Shown: positions 13,251-43,531 of the stretch, piece after piece
Numbering within the stretch: the stretch's first letter is position 1
Layout: every line of letters starts with the position of its first letter
Source of the DNA: Eledone cirrhosa
Taxonomy: Eukaryota
Length of the DNA stretch: 64,000 bases
Reading direction: 5' to 3'
Assembly (NCBI GenBank): GCA_964016885.1
Contig: OZ024748.1
Location: forward strand, 9,920,001-9,984,000
Translations under genes and position numbers: made by a program
The notes under the pieces: generated by a model
Seen by the model: the letters and a program-made list of their open reading frames with translations, nothing else
Told to the model about the DNA's origin: nothing
Databases searched by the model: none

Positions 13251-13320
13251 TATATAGTGGAAGAACACTGGAAAGTAATATCCGTAGTGGTAGAGCACTC
13301 AGTCCATGGGGCGAGTTAGG

Positions 13321-13449
13321 TAGAAGTGGTTACACAACAGTTAGTTCACCATACCGAGAACAATTGTTTCACCTTTACGAGCTGAGGATCCTCTAAGGTG
13401 AAACAATTGTTCTCGGTATGGTGAACTAACTGTTGTGTAACCACTTCTA
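13321..13449 (+). ncRNA. Perfect 55-bp fold-back containing a minimal hammerhead-ribozyme motif (13376-13418)
   Basis: Arms 13321-13375 and 13395-13449 are exact reverse complements; TACGAG-CTGAGGA-TCCTCTAAGGT-GAAAC-AATT-GTT-CTCGGTA. Confidence 0.65.
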
Positions 13450-39200: not shown

Positions 39201-42200
39201 ATATACATATATATATATATATACATATATATATATATATATATATATATATATATACAAATATATATATATATATATATATATATACAAATATATATAT
39301 ACATATATATATATATATATATACATATATACAAATATATATATATATACACAAATATATATATACATATACAAATATATATATATATACAAATATATAT
39401 ATATACATATGTATATATATATATATATATATTCAATATATATATATACAAATATATCATCATCATTTTATGTCCGCTTTTTCCCTGCTTGCAAGGGTGG
39501 GACGGGAACTGATGCTGGCTTGATTTCTACAGCTGGATGCCCTTCCTAACACCAACCTCATTTACAGTGAGTGCTGGGTGCTTTTTTGCCGTGGCACCTC
39601 CACGACCACTTTGCAGTGGAATGATAGGGACCCCAGTCCCTATCATCTCATTTCTACAGCTGAGTAAACTGGAGCAACGTGAAATAAAGTGTCTTGCTCA
39701 AGGAAACAACACATCACCCGGTCTGAGAATTGAACTCACAACCTTTCGATTGCAAGGCCAATGCTCTAACCACTAAGCCATGTGCCTCCATCTATATATA
39801 TAAATATATATGTACATACAAATATATATATACATACAAATATATATATACATATGTATATATATATATACAAATATATATATATACATATGTATATATA
39901 CATAAATATATATATATACATATGTATATATACATAAATATATATATATATATATACATATGTATATATATATATACAAATATATATATATACATATGTA
40001 TATATATATATATAAATATATATATATACATATGTATATATATATATATATAAATATAAATATATATTCAAATATATATATATATACAAATATATATATA
40101 CATGTGTATATATATATACAAATATATATATGTGTACGGATTGTTGGGATACAACAAGCAAATATTTTTATAACTGATATAAAGCACTCAACAAATATTT
40201 GGAGTAAAAATACGATATTAACAAATGGAAACTATATTTATAAAACCATATTTATTTCATTATACATATTTCAAGGACACCAAGTTAAATTATGGTGTGC
40301 TTTCATCAGATAAAATATAATATAGATCAGTTTTATAAATAAATATTGACATACCCTTAAAAAATGCAACCATTACTGTTGGAAGCTCCCGGATAGTGGA
40401 GTTGTAATTAGCTTTAATTATATTATTATTAGTATTGGATATTTTTATTTTTAAAATAAGCCGTTGGGTTACGGAGAAAGAGAAAGATAAAGAAGGAGAG
40501 AGAAAAAAAGAGAGAGAGAAAAGAGAGAGATGGTTTTATAAATATAGTTTCCATTTGTTAATATCGTATTTTTACTCCAAATATTTGTTGAGTGCTTTAT
40601 ATCAGTTATAAAAATATTTGCTTGTTGTATCCCAACAATTTAAATAGAACTTTTACATATATGTGTATATATATATATATACAAATATATATATATACAT
40701 ACATACAAATATATATATACATACATACATACAAATATATACATACATACAAATATATATATACATACATATATATATATATATACATACATATATATAT
40801 ACAAATATATATATACATATGTGTATATATATATACATATGTATATATATATATATATATATCATCATTTCATTTTACATCCGCTTTTTCCCTGCTTGCA
40901 AGGGTGGGACGGAAATTGATTTTGGCTTGATTTCTACAGCTGGATGCCCTTCCTAACACCAACCTCATTTACAGTGAGTGCTGGGTGCTTTTTTGCCGTG
41001 GCACCTCCATGACCACTTTGCAGTGGAATATGGACCCCAGTCCCTATCATCTCATTTCTACATCTGAGTAAACTGGAGCATTGCGAAATAAAGTGTCTTG
41101 CTCAAGGAATCAACACATCACCTGGTCCCGAGAATTGAACTCACAAACTTTCGATTGCAAGGCCAATGCTCTAACCACTAAGCCATGTGCCTACAAATAT
41201 ATATATACATATGTGTATATATATATACATATGTATATATATATATACATATGTATATATATATATATATATATACAAATATATATATACATATGTATAT
41301 ATATATATACATATGTATATATATATATATATATATACACATATGTATATACATATGTATATATATATATACATATGTATATATATACATATGTATATAT
41401 ACACACACACACACATATATATATATTCATTTGAAAAAAACTGAAGACCAAACTGGAAACATTCTTTAAAATTTTAATTTTGCGAAATCACTATACAAAT
41501 TTCAATGGCCCGGTTTCATCAGCCGATCATGAAGCAAAACTTAGGCCATTTCATCAGGTATAATATATTATGTGACTGTGAGTATGGTGAGATACATACG
41601 TATATCCTTTTGTGAAAAGTTGTAGCTTAGTGATTAAGGGGTTCATCTCACGATCGTAAGGTTGTGAGTTCGATTCCCGGTGACTAGTTCACATTGCCCT
41701 ATTTCTCTCAGATGGTAAAAATGAGTTGTAACTGTATTTCAAATGGCCATACACTGTCACTCTAAATCTCCCTGAGAACTACGTTAAGGGCACACATGTA
41801 TGATGATGATATACGTATATACACACAAATATATATATGTCGGTCATGATATATATATATATATATATATATATATATATAAAAGAGAGAATTGAAGTTT
41901 GCTTGAAGCATTGTGGAATAATAAAAAAAATGTTGGTCGTTTTGGAAGTTACACACAAACGGCGGACAACAGAGGCCACGTACCGTTCGTCTCCGACAGA
42001 TAACTTTCCCCCTCGGAAAACCCCCCAGTTGATGGATGCGAAATCCGAAATATAGGGACAATTAAATCTTCCCCAATCTCGTGTTATTATTTTTATTTTT
42101 TACGCTCTTTCCTACGTTTCTCTACACACTATACATCTCATTGTACATTTCCTCTTACATCTCTCTCTTCACCACCGGATCTGTTACCCGGAGATTTACC

Positions 42201-43531
42201 CATCTGCATTGTTGAGGCTTCCAAAACGACCATATATATATATATATATATATATATATATATATATATATATATATATATATATATATATGTATATATA
42301 TATATATATATATATATATATGTATGTATATATATATATATATATATATATAATGTAGAAGGTGAGTTTTATTGTAGCACAATAAAGCAATGCAAATATC
42401 GGATAAGTAGCACTCGACAGTTTATAGGACTGGAGTATAAATAATATAAGATAAAAAAATGGTTAAAAGAGTTCCAAGTATTTTATTATGCGCATTTCAA
42501 AAACAAATATCATCATGGGATGATATTTGCGTTCTCTCAACCATCTTTTGATCTTATATTATATATAATGTATGTATGTATGTATGTATGTATGTTATGT
42601 TGGTACCACAAAACATCCAGCCCACACTGTAAATGTGGTTGGCTTTAGGAAGGGGATCCAGCCGTAGAAAACCAGCCAGAAACAGTCCTATGAGCGAGAC
42701 ACGGTCATCCGACCCAACTTGCCTCTGAATGTGACAAACCCGTCTAACCCATGCTAGAAGATGGACGTTAAACGATGATGTTGATACATCTATATCTATA
42801 TATATATACACACACACACGTTAATTTCATGAGCAGACTGTTCTGTTGATTAAACAACGAGCACTCGTCGTCGAAACTGACGGATATCCAAATAAAACAA
42901 TGTATATCTTTCAGTCACAAAAATCTTTCAAATTCAACAGACACCATCCTCCCGTATGTGATGTTGAATCTTGAAATATACAACCATTTATGGCAAAGCA
43001 AAGCATTCTTCATCTCGGAGGTAGAATAGTGTTTGATTTAAGAACACATATACAATAATCTTCGCTACATTTAATGTGATTAAAAAATATCATCCAACTT
43101 AATGCATACGTTATAATTTTTAGCACTATATATATATATCAAGAGCGGGAATTCAAATGATACGAAGACTGATATTCACATGTAAATGAACATTTTAAAA
43201 TAATCTATACGCACTACCTCCTATTGTTGATTAGTGGCAGAAAAAAACAAAAAAAAAACACATAATGAACTTAAAACGATTACTTTTCCCAAAAAATCTT
43301 TACTAATCCTGCCATAAAACTAGATCGAAATGCCTGTCCATATTAATTTATTAACGAAGTTTTTAATTCCCTAAGTTAAAATACAAGACAGCTTGTGTGT
43401 ATACGTGCATATGTTTTATTCTGTGATTATGGCTATGACTATCTGTGTACAAATTAACTTAGCTTACCTTTATTTTTTTGAGTCCGAGAGATTTCTCGCT
43501 CAATTTCTTGTATTTTTTCTAAAATACCCAT
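24169..43531 (-). CDS. DRG2: Developmentally regulated GTP-binding protein 2 (OBG/HflX family, TGS domain), 14 coding exons, 364 aa
   Basis: Exons 43531-43468, 38615-38527, 38250-38179, 37001-36912, 35468-35408, 33385-33295, 32894-32822, 31636-31546, 31403-31306, 29185-29109, 27759-27671, 27331-27273, 25927-25874, 24255-24169 sum to 1095 nt with no stops. The protein runs [39 protein letters not shown]1 GFPSVGKST, G2 YEFTTL, G3 [10 protein letters not shown]4 NKID, and ends DVIQIVKK*. Confidence 0.97.
24780..25682 (+). mobile_element. Degenerate LINE RT fragment, probably Ingi/Vingi-like
   Basis: Broken frames: [56 protein letters not shown]. Confidence 0.65.
25874..25927 (-). CDS. DRG2: DRG2 exon 13
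   Basis: [18 protein letters not shown]. Confidence 0.95.
27273..27331 (-). CDS. DRG2: DRG2 exon 12
   Basis: [20 protein letters not shown]. Confidence 0.93.
27671..27759 (-). CDS. DRG2: DRG2 exon 11
   Basis: [29 protein letters not shown]. Confidence 0.95.
27995..28300. repeat. Minisatellite, ~41-43 bp unit
   Basis: Repeated gactttctctagcacactctcacaatccacaatattac...ccaca. Confidence 0.85.
28300..28965 (-). mobile_element. RTE LINE fragment (endonuclease-linker region)
   Basis: The reverse strand encodes RVTWWWN and [12 protein letters not shown], homologous to 3100-3750. Confidence 0.8.
29109..29185 (-). CDS. DRG2: DRG2 exon 10 (G4 NKID)
   Basis: [26 protein letters not shown]. Confidence 0.95.
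30092..31182 (-). mobile_element. RTE LINE 3' fragment
   Basis: The reverse strand has [23 protein letters not shown] (GLKVNL-like), GRPRRP and the common 3' UTR. Confidence 0.8.
31306..31403 (-). CDS. DRG2: DRG2 exon 9
   Basis: [33 protein letters not shown]. Confidence 0.95.
31404..31545 (-). other. U12-type (minor spliceosome) GT-AG intron of DRG2, 142 nt
   Basis: 5' splice site GTATCCTTTT and branch site TTCCTTAAC (31422-31414), 10 nt upstream of the exon start after the AG acceptor. Confidence 0.92.
31546..31636 (-). CDS. DRG2: DRG2 exon 8
   Basis: [30 protein letters not shown]|gtatcctttt. Confidence 0.95.
31798..32195. repeat. (ACT)n-derived compound minisatellite
   Basis: Repeated ctaac[t/c]cactactactacca[t/c]a. 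Confidence 0.9.
32448..32746. repeat. 51-bp tandem repeat, ~6 copies
   Basis: Unit gcatctaatgctgaagtacactgcagtaaagctatagttatgttcaggtaa. Confidence 0.92.
32822..32894 (-). CDS. DRG2: DRG2 exon 7
   Basis: [24 protein letters not shown]. Confidence 0.95.
33295..33385 (-). CDS. DRG2: DRG2 exon 6
   Basis: [30 protein letters not shown]. Confidence 0.95.
34293..34479 (-). repeat. Full-length tRNA-derived SINE with 15-bp TSD
   Basis: TSD ggtagttaatataat at 34278-34292 and 34480-34494; A-box TGGCAGTATTGG and a B-box-like GTTTAAATCC on the minus strand. Confidence 0.85.
35408..35468 (-). CDS. DRG2: DRG2 exon 5
   Basis: [21 protein letters not shown]. Confidence 0.95.
36912..37001 (-). CDS. DRG2: DRG2 exon 4
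   Basis: [30 protein letters not shown]. Confidence 0.95.
37240..37640 (-). mobile_element. RTE LINE fragment
   Basis: The reverse strand has [15 protein letters not shown], as in RTE RT C-terminal regions. Confidence 0.65.
38179..38250 (-). CDS. DRG2: DRG2 exon 3 (P-loop)
   Basis: [24 protein letters not shown]. Confidence 0.95.
38527..38615 (-). CDS. DRG2: DRG2 exon 2
   Basis: [30 protein letters not shown]|gtgag. Confidence 0.95.
39040..42355. repeat. (TA)n/(TACA)n microsatellite field in DRG2 intron 1, with embedded inserts
   Basis: Tracts at 39040-39455, 39790-40132, 40655-40862, 41195-41425, 41848-41882 and 42232-42352. Confidence 0.95.
40253..40317 (-). ncRNA. Minimal type-I hammerhead ribozyme motif (Penelope-like pLTR type)
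   Basis: Minus strand: TATTTTAT-CTGATGA-AAGCACACCA-TAATTTAACT-TGGTGTCCTT-GAAAT-ATGT-ATA-ATGAAATA, i.e. stem I, intact core, stem II, a very short stem III and an AUA cleavage triplet. Confidence 0.72.
43468..43531 (-). CDS. DRG2: DRG2 exon 1
   Basis: [21 protein letters not shown]|gtaag. Confidence 0.95.

What the first reader, a model, noticed from the sequence alone, without database searches (positions are those of the whole stretch)
13253..42560. A recurring architecture: short (TA)n-embedded fold-back inserts carrying hammerhead motifs
Seen: at least five unrelated short inserts (13253-13449, 22327-22680, 40133-40655, 41883-42232, 42353-42562) share one plan. Each is bounded by (TA)n, one end abutting the microsatellite is an inverted copy of an internal segment, and a whole or partial CUGANGA...GAAA-palindrome-NUH motif lies in or next to the hairpin. 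The loop-III palindromes differ (CAATTG, ACGCGT, TATGTA, TGCGCA). Established: Penelope-like elements produce inverted partial pLTRs, carry minimal hammerheads, and some families favour AT microsatellites. Inference: several distinct ribozyme-bearing, non-coding mobile families are colonising (TA)n tracts at about one per 6 kb here. ORF-based and standard repeat annotation would miss them.
Basis: partly seen in the sequence, partly recalled or inferred. Interest (0 to 1): 0.75.

Follow-up and report, generated by a model that had tools for sequence, protein, structure and literature searches.

The report
Inverted tail ends of Penelope retrotransposons
The five hairpin inserts are cut-short, back-to-back tail ends of five protein-coding Penelope-type jumping genes sitting in TA repeats, a known pattern, but across the genome one arm nearly always stops at an inner site and the other at an outer site, which likely reflects one RNA being copied from both sides of the DNA cut.

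Summary
The five inserts are real and multicopy (hundreds to 17,660 exact matches per probe). They are not non-coding families. Longer copies run into RT plus GIY-YIG frames, and family E has intact ORFs of about 800 aa. A, B, C and E are Hydra-type Penelope-like elements (PLEs); D is a CCHH-type PLE. Inverted 5'-truncated ends, a one-sided tail, hammerheads and (TA)n targeting are all published for PLEs. Density is ordinary for this genome (30 hammerheads in 400 kb of evenly spaced samples). Three details go beyond the papers I found. (1) Of 49 classified head-to-head pairs, 47 have one long and one short end and none has two short ends; paired arms usually share a subfamily. (2) The short end lies 3-4 nt before a conserved tail hairpin (ACTC...GAGTGCT), which shows a compensatory change in coral and sea-cucumber Hydra elements. 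Likely mechanism: twin target-primed reverse transcription on one RNA, with ribozyme cleavage dispensable. This scan had already noted the Hydra identity, end rule, a hairpin and A6U cores on other DNA.

The parts
13257..13375 (-). Family A long arm: 3' end with ~64-nt tail (Hydra-type PLE)
   Evidence: 95% identical to the end of long copy L336, which carries an RT+EN frame
13372..13449 (+). Family A short arm, ending at the internal site and then (TA)n
   Evidence: the same end in 53 of 129 unbiased arms
13378..13415 (+). Complete type-I hammerhead, core CUGAGGA, loop III CAAUUG, GUU site
   Evidence: its GAAA half is locked in the long hairpin in the MFE fold
13294..13316 (-). Family A tail hairpin ACTC-stemloop-GAGTGCT, starting 4 nt after the short-end site
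   Evidence: coordinates read
22327..22520 (-). Family B long arm with ~100-nt tail and an internal deletion
22368..22420 (-). Family B tail hairpin ACTC...GAGTGCT
   Evidence: coordinates read
22535..22681 (+). Family B short arm ending at the internal site
22545..22631 (+). Family B hammerhead-shaped motif: stem I GGGT/ACCT, core CCGUCGA (U4C, A6U), long stem II, GAAA, loop III, GUC site
   Evidence: register; 84 of the first 100 listed copies share the core, none canonical; counted by eye
40140..40530 (-). Family C main arm, 391 nt, ending 16 nt short of the outer site
   Evidence: 95% to the end of ORF-bearing copy L141
40253..40317 (-). Complete hammerhead, core CUGAUGA, 8-bp stem I, AUA site
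   Evidence: core in 27 of 29 family hits
40530..40655 (+). Family C inverted arm with full tail (this insert has two tailed arms, an exception to the rule); tail hairpin at 40574-40596
41883..41948 (-). Family D long arm: ~50-nt tail plus ~17 nt
41947..42232 (+). Family D short-ended arm (3' UTR of a CCHH-type PLE)
   Evidence: 92.7% to L143, which encodes RVT_1 and GIY-YIG
42023..42057 (+). Family D minimal hammerhead homologue with core CAGUUGA (U4A, A6U)
   Evidence: sister families L430 and L431 have canonical CUGANGA at the same place
42353..42536 (-). Family E long arm with tail; hammerhead truncated inside the core; tail hairpin at 42409-42436
42537..42560 (+). Family E short arm (~22 nt) ending at the internal site

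Best explanation
The inserts are 5'-truncated, head-to-head pairs of 3' ends of five RT + GIY-YIG Penelope-like retrotransposon families lying in TA repeats, and each pair was likely made by twin target-primed reverse transcription of one element RNA. Shown: the parent ORFs; two fixed 3' ends per family; one long and one short end per insertion; a shared subfamily in paired arms; junctions of a few bases; TA runs already present at the 2 empty-site homologues found. Inferred: the endonuclease nicks both strands of a (TA)n tract. Each 3'-OH primes cDNA using short TA microhomology, one at an outer site and one at an inner site 3-4 nt 5' of a conserved tail hairpin that probably holds the protein, perhaps as a dimer. 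Both cDNAs stop early and are joined head to head. The hammerhead is a passenger of the pLTR: most templates were copied across the uncut site, and two families spread with A6U cores.
For: ORF links: A L336, 388-aa RT/EN frame; B L330, L333, L335, L396, L397; C L140, L141; D L143; E L382 (809 aa from first Met) and L390 (798 aa, flanked by two direct pLTRs). Copy counts of exact probes: A 6,477, B 1,643, E 17,660; degenerate D probe 309; reversed controls 0 (these count arms, not insertions). End rule on consecutive, position-ordered hits: 47 long+short, 2 long+long, 0 short+short of 49 classified pairs; binomial P 2e-12 against 0.5. The short arm reaches further upstream than the long arm in 17 of 47 pairs, the reverse in 18, within 5 nt in 12. 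Mismatch at subfamily-diagnostic sites, paired versus non-paired arms: E 0.069 vs 0.502 (24 pairs), A 0.174 vs 0.436 (24), B 0.241 vs 0.436 (25). Short-end site to ACTC stem: A 4 nt (26 arms), B 3 nt (29), C 4 nt (3), E 4 nt (8; 7 more at 7 nt). At most 5 of 129 A arms begin within 2 nt of the predicted cleavage site. In vitro, a Poseidon PLE nicks and extends both strands, starts at two internal RNA sites, is predicted to be a dimer, and does not need hammerhead cleavage (PMC11167929).
Against: The window's own insert C has two tailed arms. One A pair is long+long, and L384 may be another. Eight of 57 pairs were unclassified, 3 more were dropped for an intervening TA run, and two A pairs are one duplicated locus. 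Arm similarity could come from gene conversion between arms or from one dominant source locus at a time; several B pairs and 2-3 E pairs disagree at many diagnostic sites. Asymmetric deletion of a palindrome centre could also make the short arm look longer. PMC11167929 saw no strand difference in start-site use and no homology to the target. Five of 18 clusters with the GAG motif lacked the xCTC partner, and D has no such hairpin. Nothing was tested biochemically.
Confidence: 0.75

Rival explanations
1. Same PLE origin, but the inversion arises by self-priming or fold-back: one strand (an antisense RNA or the first cDNA) folds on itself and is copied, and the copy is resolved at the inner site by the endonuclease.
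For: Proposed for head-to-head PLE palindromes in PMC3846280 (passages); the tail is ascribed to EN-mediated resolution in PMC8557442. It explains the long+short rule and arm similarity.
Against: It predicts that the short-ended arm is contained in the tailed arm. Instead the short arm extends further in 17 of 47 pairs, by kilobases in L143, L380 and L383. Later central deletions would be needed in each case.
Confidence: 0.15
2. Twin priming, but on two separate RNA molecules held by an asymmetric protein dimer.
For: Some pairs disagree at many diagnostic sites (B: 6-7 of 10 in 4 of 25 pairs; E: 6-8 of ~20 in 3 of 24). Both arms copy the same RNA stretch, which is simple with two templates.
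Against: 21 of 24 E pairs differ at 2 or fewer of ~20 diagnostic sites although several subfamilies coexist; variants private to one pair average 0.25 versus 0.004 for non-pairs. Some discordance is alignment noise near junctions.
Confidence: 0.25
3. One reading: independent non-coding, ribozyme-driven families (retrozyme- or MITE-like) that move as short units.
For: Most copies are short and carry no coding sequence; the window holds no PLE coding DNA. Many A arms start within ~70 nt upstream of the cleavage site. Animal retrozymes are reported to derive from PLE pLTRs (10.64898/2026.07.22.740005, part 1 of 5 read).
Against: 5' ends vary continuously, and all five families run into RT/EN frames. 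Junctions differ from copy to copy, so the hairpin is remade at each insertion. No tandem hammerhead units were seen.
Confidence: 0.06
4. Assembly or library fold-back artefacts.
For: No short-read contig spans a whole insert.
Against: Arms are imperfect (mean divergence 1-5%), end at family-fixed sites and have unrelated flanks. Short-read contigs show head-to-head joints at many positions, and one contig joins A's short end to its single-copy right flank (that run may be the assembly's own sample).
Confidence: 0.01

Closest known systems
Hydra clade of C-terminal EN+ Penelope-like elements, e.g. Hydra-1_Obim, Hydra-2_Amil (PMC8557442; section 11, passages, supplement parts 2, 52, 53)
   Same: A, B, C, E: RT followed by GIY-YIG, CxCx5C linker, no CCHH, CxxC and CxH around the conserved E and N, DKT where recovered, 3' hammerhead, (TA)n targets, inverted truncated copy.
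   Different: Tails of ~64-100 nt rather than 30-40; E units 3.3-3.7 kb; RW followed by I, T or R, not K; B has an A6U core and a long 3' UTR. The paper says the tail is often at one end only but gives no counts, and I saw no mention of the tail hairpin in the passages read.
Canonical CCHH-type EN+ PLEs (Penelope/Poseidon, Nematis, Neptune), including Poseidon PAc of the anole (PMC11167929, parts 1-2 of 4 read)
   Same: Family D: GPKF and DKG motifs, RVT_1 and GIY-YIG Pfam hits, CxxC inside the GIY-YIG core, minimal hammerhead, two fixed 3' ends bounding a tail.
   Different: D's subclade is unresolved; its core is CAGUUGA. In PAc the tail lies in the ORF start, whereas in E it lies ~100 nt before the ORF. 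The sites here show short TA microhomology.
Inverted pLTR insertions with an optional tail in Adineta vaga Penelope (PMC3846280, passages)
   Same: Head-to-head inverted pLTRs with the tail on one of them.
   Different: Explained there by self-priming on an antisense template; the arm-length data here favour two priming events.
Minimal type-I hammerheads of PLE pLTRs (PMC4209133, parts 1-2 of 4 read)
   Same: Short palindromic helix III, extra base after A9, mostly single dispersed copies, opposite-strand pairs 100-700 bp apart already noted.
   Different: The U3-A8 core variant is described there; the U4C/U4A + A6U cores of B and D were not in the parts read.
Metazoan non-LTR retrozymes (PMC7229834, passages; 10.64898/2026.07.22.740005, part 1)
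   Same: Type-I hammerhead, link to PLEs.
   Different: Retrozymes are ORF-less tandem units of 150-450 bp; these five families have coding parents and are not tandem.
L1 twin priming (recalled, not from a call)
   Same: An inverted insertion from two priming events at the two target strands.
   Different: In L1 the two parts usually cover different stretches of the RNA and the inner site varies; here both arms copy the same stretch and the inner site is fixed.

Membership tests
EN+ Penelope-like elements (all five) | Single ORF with RT and C-terminal GIY-YIG endonuclease | tested here: met
   Longer copies. Pfam passes the cutoff only for D (RVT_1 39.4 bits, GIY-YIG 25.1); B's EN is below cutoff (E 0.0035); 4 A, C and E frames gave no family and one E frame only an unrelated weak hit. 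E's protein has 355 homologues at E<=1e-20, many with PF26215.
EN+ Penelope-like elements (all five) | pLTR, inverted 5'-truncated copy and one-sided tail | tested here: met
   direct pLTR-ORF-pLTR units shown for E only (L380, L381, L390)
EN+ Penelope-like elements (all five) | Hammerhead in the pLTR | tested here: met
   Canonical cores in A, C, E; altered cores in B and D
Hydra clade (A, B, C, E) | CxCx5C linker before the EN | tested here: met
   Present in all four
Hydra clade (A, B, C, E) | CCHH absent; CxxC and CxH flanking the conserved E and N | tested here: met
   Alignment A1
Hydra clade (A, B, C, E) | DKG changed to DKT | tested here: inconclusive
   DKT in C (L141), E, and one B frame (L397); GKT in B copy L396; A's N-terminus not recovered
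Hydra clade (A, B, C, E) | N-terminal RWK motif | tested here: inconclusive
   RW conserved but followed by I or T in E and R in B; not recovered for A and C
Hydra clade (A, B, C, E) | Insertion into (TA)n | tested here: met
   both of 2 empty-site homologues (of 58 insertions tried) hold a TA run
Hydra clade (A, B, C, E) | Placement in the Hydra clade in an RT tree | not tested
   Reference proteins were visible only as supplement text; comparison was by motif and by eye
CCHH-type PLE clades (D) | GxKF and DKG motifs; CCHH motif in the EN | tested here: met
   GPKF, DKG; CxxC inside the GIY-YIG core with two downstream His
Nematis or Neptune (D) | CX2-5CxxC linker | tested here: inconclusive
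   D has Cx4Cx6CC, which fits neither pattern exactly
Non-LTR retrozymes | No coding parent; tandem hammerhead units | tested here: not met
Non-LTR retrozymes | Abundant circular RNA of unit length | not testable with these tools
   No RNA run was listed
Active hammerhead ribozyme | Self-cleavage | not testable with these tools
   Sequence and fold only

The most novel reading that the evidence does not exclude
Hydra-clade PLEs carry a clade-wide RNA signal in the tail (RCUC-stemloop-GAGYRCU, kept from corals to this genome with a compensatory pair). It docks an asymmetric RT-endonuclease dimer that primes one uncut RNA twice, at a fixed point 3-4 nt before the hairpin and at an outer point, from the two sides of a staggered cut in (TA)n. 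The hammerhead no longer needs to cut, as shown by two unrelated families that spread after the same U4/A6 core changes.
Probability: 0.4. Interest if true: 0.65.

Novelty: new member of a known kind. Interest (0 to 1): 0.38.

Why it matters
The value is mechanistic. How PLEs make inverted insertions and one-sided tails is named as an open question in PMC8557442 and PMC11167929. The long/short rule, the arm-length symmetry and the hairpin spacing give concrete, mutable predictions, and family E supplies intact ORFs with their pLTRs for an in vitro test. The A6U families bear on whether PLE hammerheads need to cleave at all.

Tried and rejected
Rfam scan of the window: no hammerhead family among 85 matches at E<=5; the hits were miRNA models on hairpins and TA repeats. 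The repeat finder was swamped by TA arrays. The half motif GAAA+palindrome+UH is not enriched over shuffles. My first label, Neptune, was dropped once the CxCx5C linker and missing CCHH were checked against PMC8557442. Reading B's core as CUGAUCA was rejected: no stem I or II in that register. A short non-autonomous RNA with a fixed 5' end for A was rejected: a tail-only query recovered copies running into EN and RT. Empty-site search worked for only 2 of 58 insertions, and no target duplication can be read inside TA. Sequencing runs: no RNA holder listed; no contig or read spanned an insert, and no empty allele was seen in the 6 runs laid. The end rule could not be tested for D: 16 arms scored in 30 loci, no pairs recovered; it was not sampled for C. 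The loose TA-adjacent fold-back count (56 in 400 kb) was not used, since it includes DNA transposons. Arm-length correlation is weak (A rho 0.37, P 0.03; not significant in B and E) and extensions stopped at indels. Paper searches for twin priming in Penelope, Hydra clade with octopus, A6U/U4A cores and 2022+ PLE initiation returned no paper stating the end rule, the hairpin or these cores. Subscription journals are not covered, and the 2017 paper on PLE hammerhead variants (recalled) was not seen. Supplementary figures of PMC11167929 and supplements of the bioRxiv preprint were not read and may bear on novelty.

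
Full report
Observation. The window is G000:C8:9920001-9984000 of a 3.0-Gb animal assembly. All five inserts are present as stated; I call them A (13253-13449), B (22327-22680), C (40135-40655), D (41883-42232) and E (42353-42560). A strict hammerhead descriptor finds only A and C complete in the window. 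A hammerhead with a perfectly palindromic loop III occurs once, against 0 in 60 shuffles, but the GAAA-palindrome-UH half alone is within chance (8 versus 3.2 +/- 1.8). Rfam found no hammerhead. A's left side is only TATATA at the end of a Tc1/mariner-like element.

Copy number and density. Each insert hit the 40-candidate scoring limit, from 826 to 3,149 first-look candidates. Exact probes gave 6,477 (A), 1,643 (B) and 17,660 (E) matches, and a degenerate D probe 309, each with 0 for the reversed control. These count arms, not insertions. Forty evenly spaced 10-kb stretches held 30 strict hammerheads against 0-3 in ten shuffles, about one per 13 kb. The window has five inserts in 64 kb, so it is not a hot spot.

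Parents. Copies picked by the tail alone, or by position, are 5'-truncated at many points and the longest run into coding DNA. A: L336 has a 388-aa open frame with the RT YRDD motif and the endonuclease, ending about 160 nt before the hammerhead. B: EN or RT/EN frames lie 1.7 kb or more upstream of the B end in L330, L333, L335, L396 and L397. C: L140 and L141. D: L143, with Pfam RVT_1 and GIY-YIG above cutoff. E: L382 (809 aa from the first Met) and L390 (798 aa between two direct pLTRs) are intact. The window itself has no tblastn hit to the E or D proteins. A, B, C and E have the CxCx5C linker, lack CCHH and have CxxC and CxH around the conserved E and N, the Hydra-clade marks of PMC8557442 section 11. 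DKT and RWK were only partly confirmed and no tree was built. D has GPKF, DKG and an internal CxxC, so it is a CCHH-type PLE of unresolved subclade.

Anatomy of an insertion. In every family arms end at one of two fixed places followed by TA: an outer site (long, with tail) and an inner site (short). I took consecutive hits of probes shared by both arm types: 100 for A and 30 each for B and E. A gave 129 arms (67 long, 53 short, 9 other) and 43 head-to-head pairs; B 36 arms and 8 pairs; E 33 arms and 9 pairs. Three pairs with a TA run between them were dropped and 8 were unclassified. Of the other 49, 47 are long+short, 2 long+long and 0 short+short (P 2e-12 against an even split); two of the A pairs are one duplicated locus. 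One of the long+long pairs (E, L380) proved to be a long arm plus an internal pLTR, with the short end 3.3 kb further on. Further wide pairs that I chose from the listings by position and strand gave long+short in E at L382, L383, L385-L388, L391 (twice, probably a duplicate), L392, L393 and L395, and in B at L335 and L397-L399. L384 is a doubtful long+long, and L396 has one end shorter than the usual inner site. In the window A, B, D and E are long+short; C has two tailed arms.

Either arm may be the longer one: short arm further upstream in 17 of 47 pairs, long arm in 18, within 5 nt in 12; 33 of 47 junctions lie between a 10-nt gap and an 11-nt overlap (extensions stop at indels, so long arms are underestimated). 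A fold-back or antisense self-priming model, as proposed in PMC3846280 (passages), requires the short arm to lie within the long one. These data favour two priming events, though later deletions could mimic them. Paired arms share subfamily variants far more than random pairs: E 0.069 versus 0.502, A 0.174 versus 0.436, B 0.241 versus 0.436 (the E and B sets include similarity-selected loci). That fits one template RNA, but also conversion between arms or a single active source. Two of 58 insertions had an empty-site homologue, and both already hold TA.

Tail hairpin. The tails of A, B, C and E, otherwise unalignable, share ACTC, a variable stem-loop, then GAGTGCT, with ACTC pairing GAGT. The short end lies 4 nt (A, C, E) or 3 nt (B) before ACTC. 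Of 52 hammerhead clusters, 18 had the GAG motif in long arms and 13 of these had the partner; several are subfamilies of B and E. Among the six Hydra consensuses in the supplement of PMC8557442 (parts 52-53, read by eye), Hydra-2_Amil and Hydra-2_Ajap have GCTC...GAGCACT, a compensatory change in the first pair. Hydra-1_Amil has ATTC...GAGT, Hydra-1_Crog has one mismatch, and two show no motif. D lacks it. A protein-binding role is inferred, by analogy with the stem-loop start sites of PAc (PMC11167929).

Hammerheads. A, C and E families have canonical cores. In A the inverted arm would sequester the GAAA half. At most 5 of 129 A arms begin within 2 nt of the predicted cut, so templates were mostly uncut, as found in vitro for PAc. 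B's motif folds with stem I GGGT/ACCT, core CCGUCGA, a 7-of-8-pair stem II and a CGCGCG loop III; 84 of the first 100 listed copies have that core and none is canonical (counted by eye). D has CAGUUGA in 66 of the first 100 listed, CUGUUGA in 6 and canonical cores in 2 (counted by eye). Those 2 are sister families about 70% identical, with the motif in the same place, and a 73% relative keeps CAGUUGA while changing loops II and III. That A6 changes cripple cleavage is recalled, not tested; these motifs may be dead, slow or structural.

Artefact check. No contig spans an insert, but short-read contigs show many distinct head-to-head joints and one links A's short end to its single-copy flank (this run may be the assembly's own sample). 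Imperfect arms, fixed ends and unrelated flanks rule out library fold-backs.

Verdict. The architecture is the known insertion pattern of EN+ PLEs (PMC8557442 passages; PMC4209133 parts 1-2), here from four Hydra-type families and one CCHH-type family. I put the identity at about 0.95 and the one-RNA twin-priming mechanism at about 0.5. My paper searches found no statement of the quantitative end rule, the hairpin or these cores. Earlier notes of this scan report similar things on other DNA. I had the two-end pattern and the GAGTGCT motif before looking and took the Hydra lead from those notes. Interest 0.38.

Noticed in passing
window 11946-13254 and 20805-22082: Two ~1.3-kb Tc1/mariner-like elements with CAGGGTG terminal inverted repeats and broken transposase frames (family label recalled from the motifs). 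Insert A sits in the TA at the right end of the first.
   Followed up: partly
window 39457-39790 and 40862-41190: Two direct copies of a tRNA-headed SINE-like repeat on the minus strand, each beside a TA-rich array, with insert C between them.
   Followed up: no
L343, L358, L369, L374: An abundant family with a U3-A8 hammerhead core (UUGAAAA) and ends about 15 and 140 nt after the cut site; 6 hits in the 400-kb sample.
   Followed up: no
A-family arms in L181-L266, e.g. L187, L204, L234: Some arms are followed by a (TC)n run before the TA run (18 of 67 long, 5 of 53 short arms), ending a few bases early at a TCT in the element; could be priming in compound microsatellites or repeat addition at initiation.
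   Followed up: no
L112:1173-1421 and L178: Short tandem repeats of element sequence at inversion junctions (32-nt unit in A, ~57-nt unit in B), suggesting repeated template jumps.
   Followed up: no
L380, L381, L390 (just past the tail): In full-length E units the outer site is internal: sequence continues ~100 nt to the ORF start, so the outer end is also an internal priming or processing site in tandem transcripts.
   Followed up: partly
L394:990-3219: Fragmented ORFs of another DKG-type PLE-like element in a neighbouring stretch.
   Followed up: no
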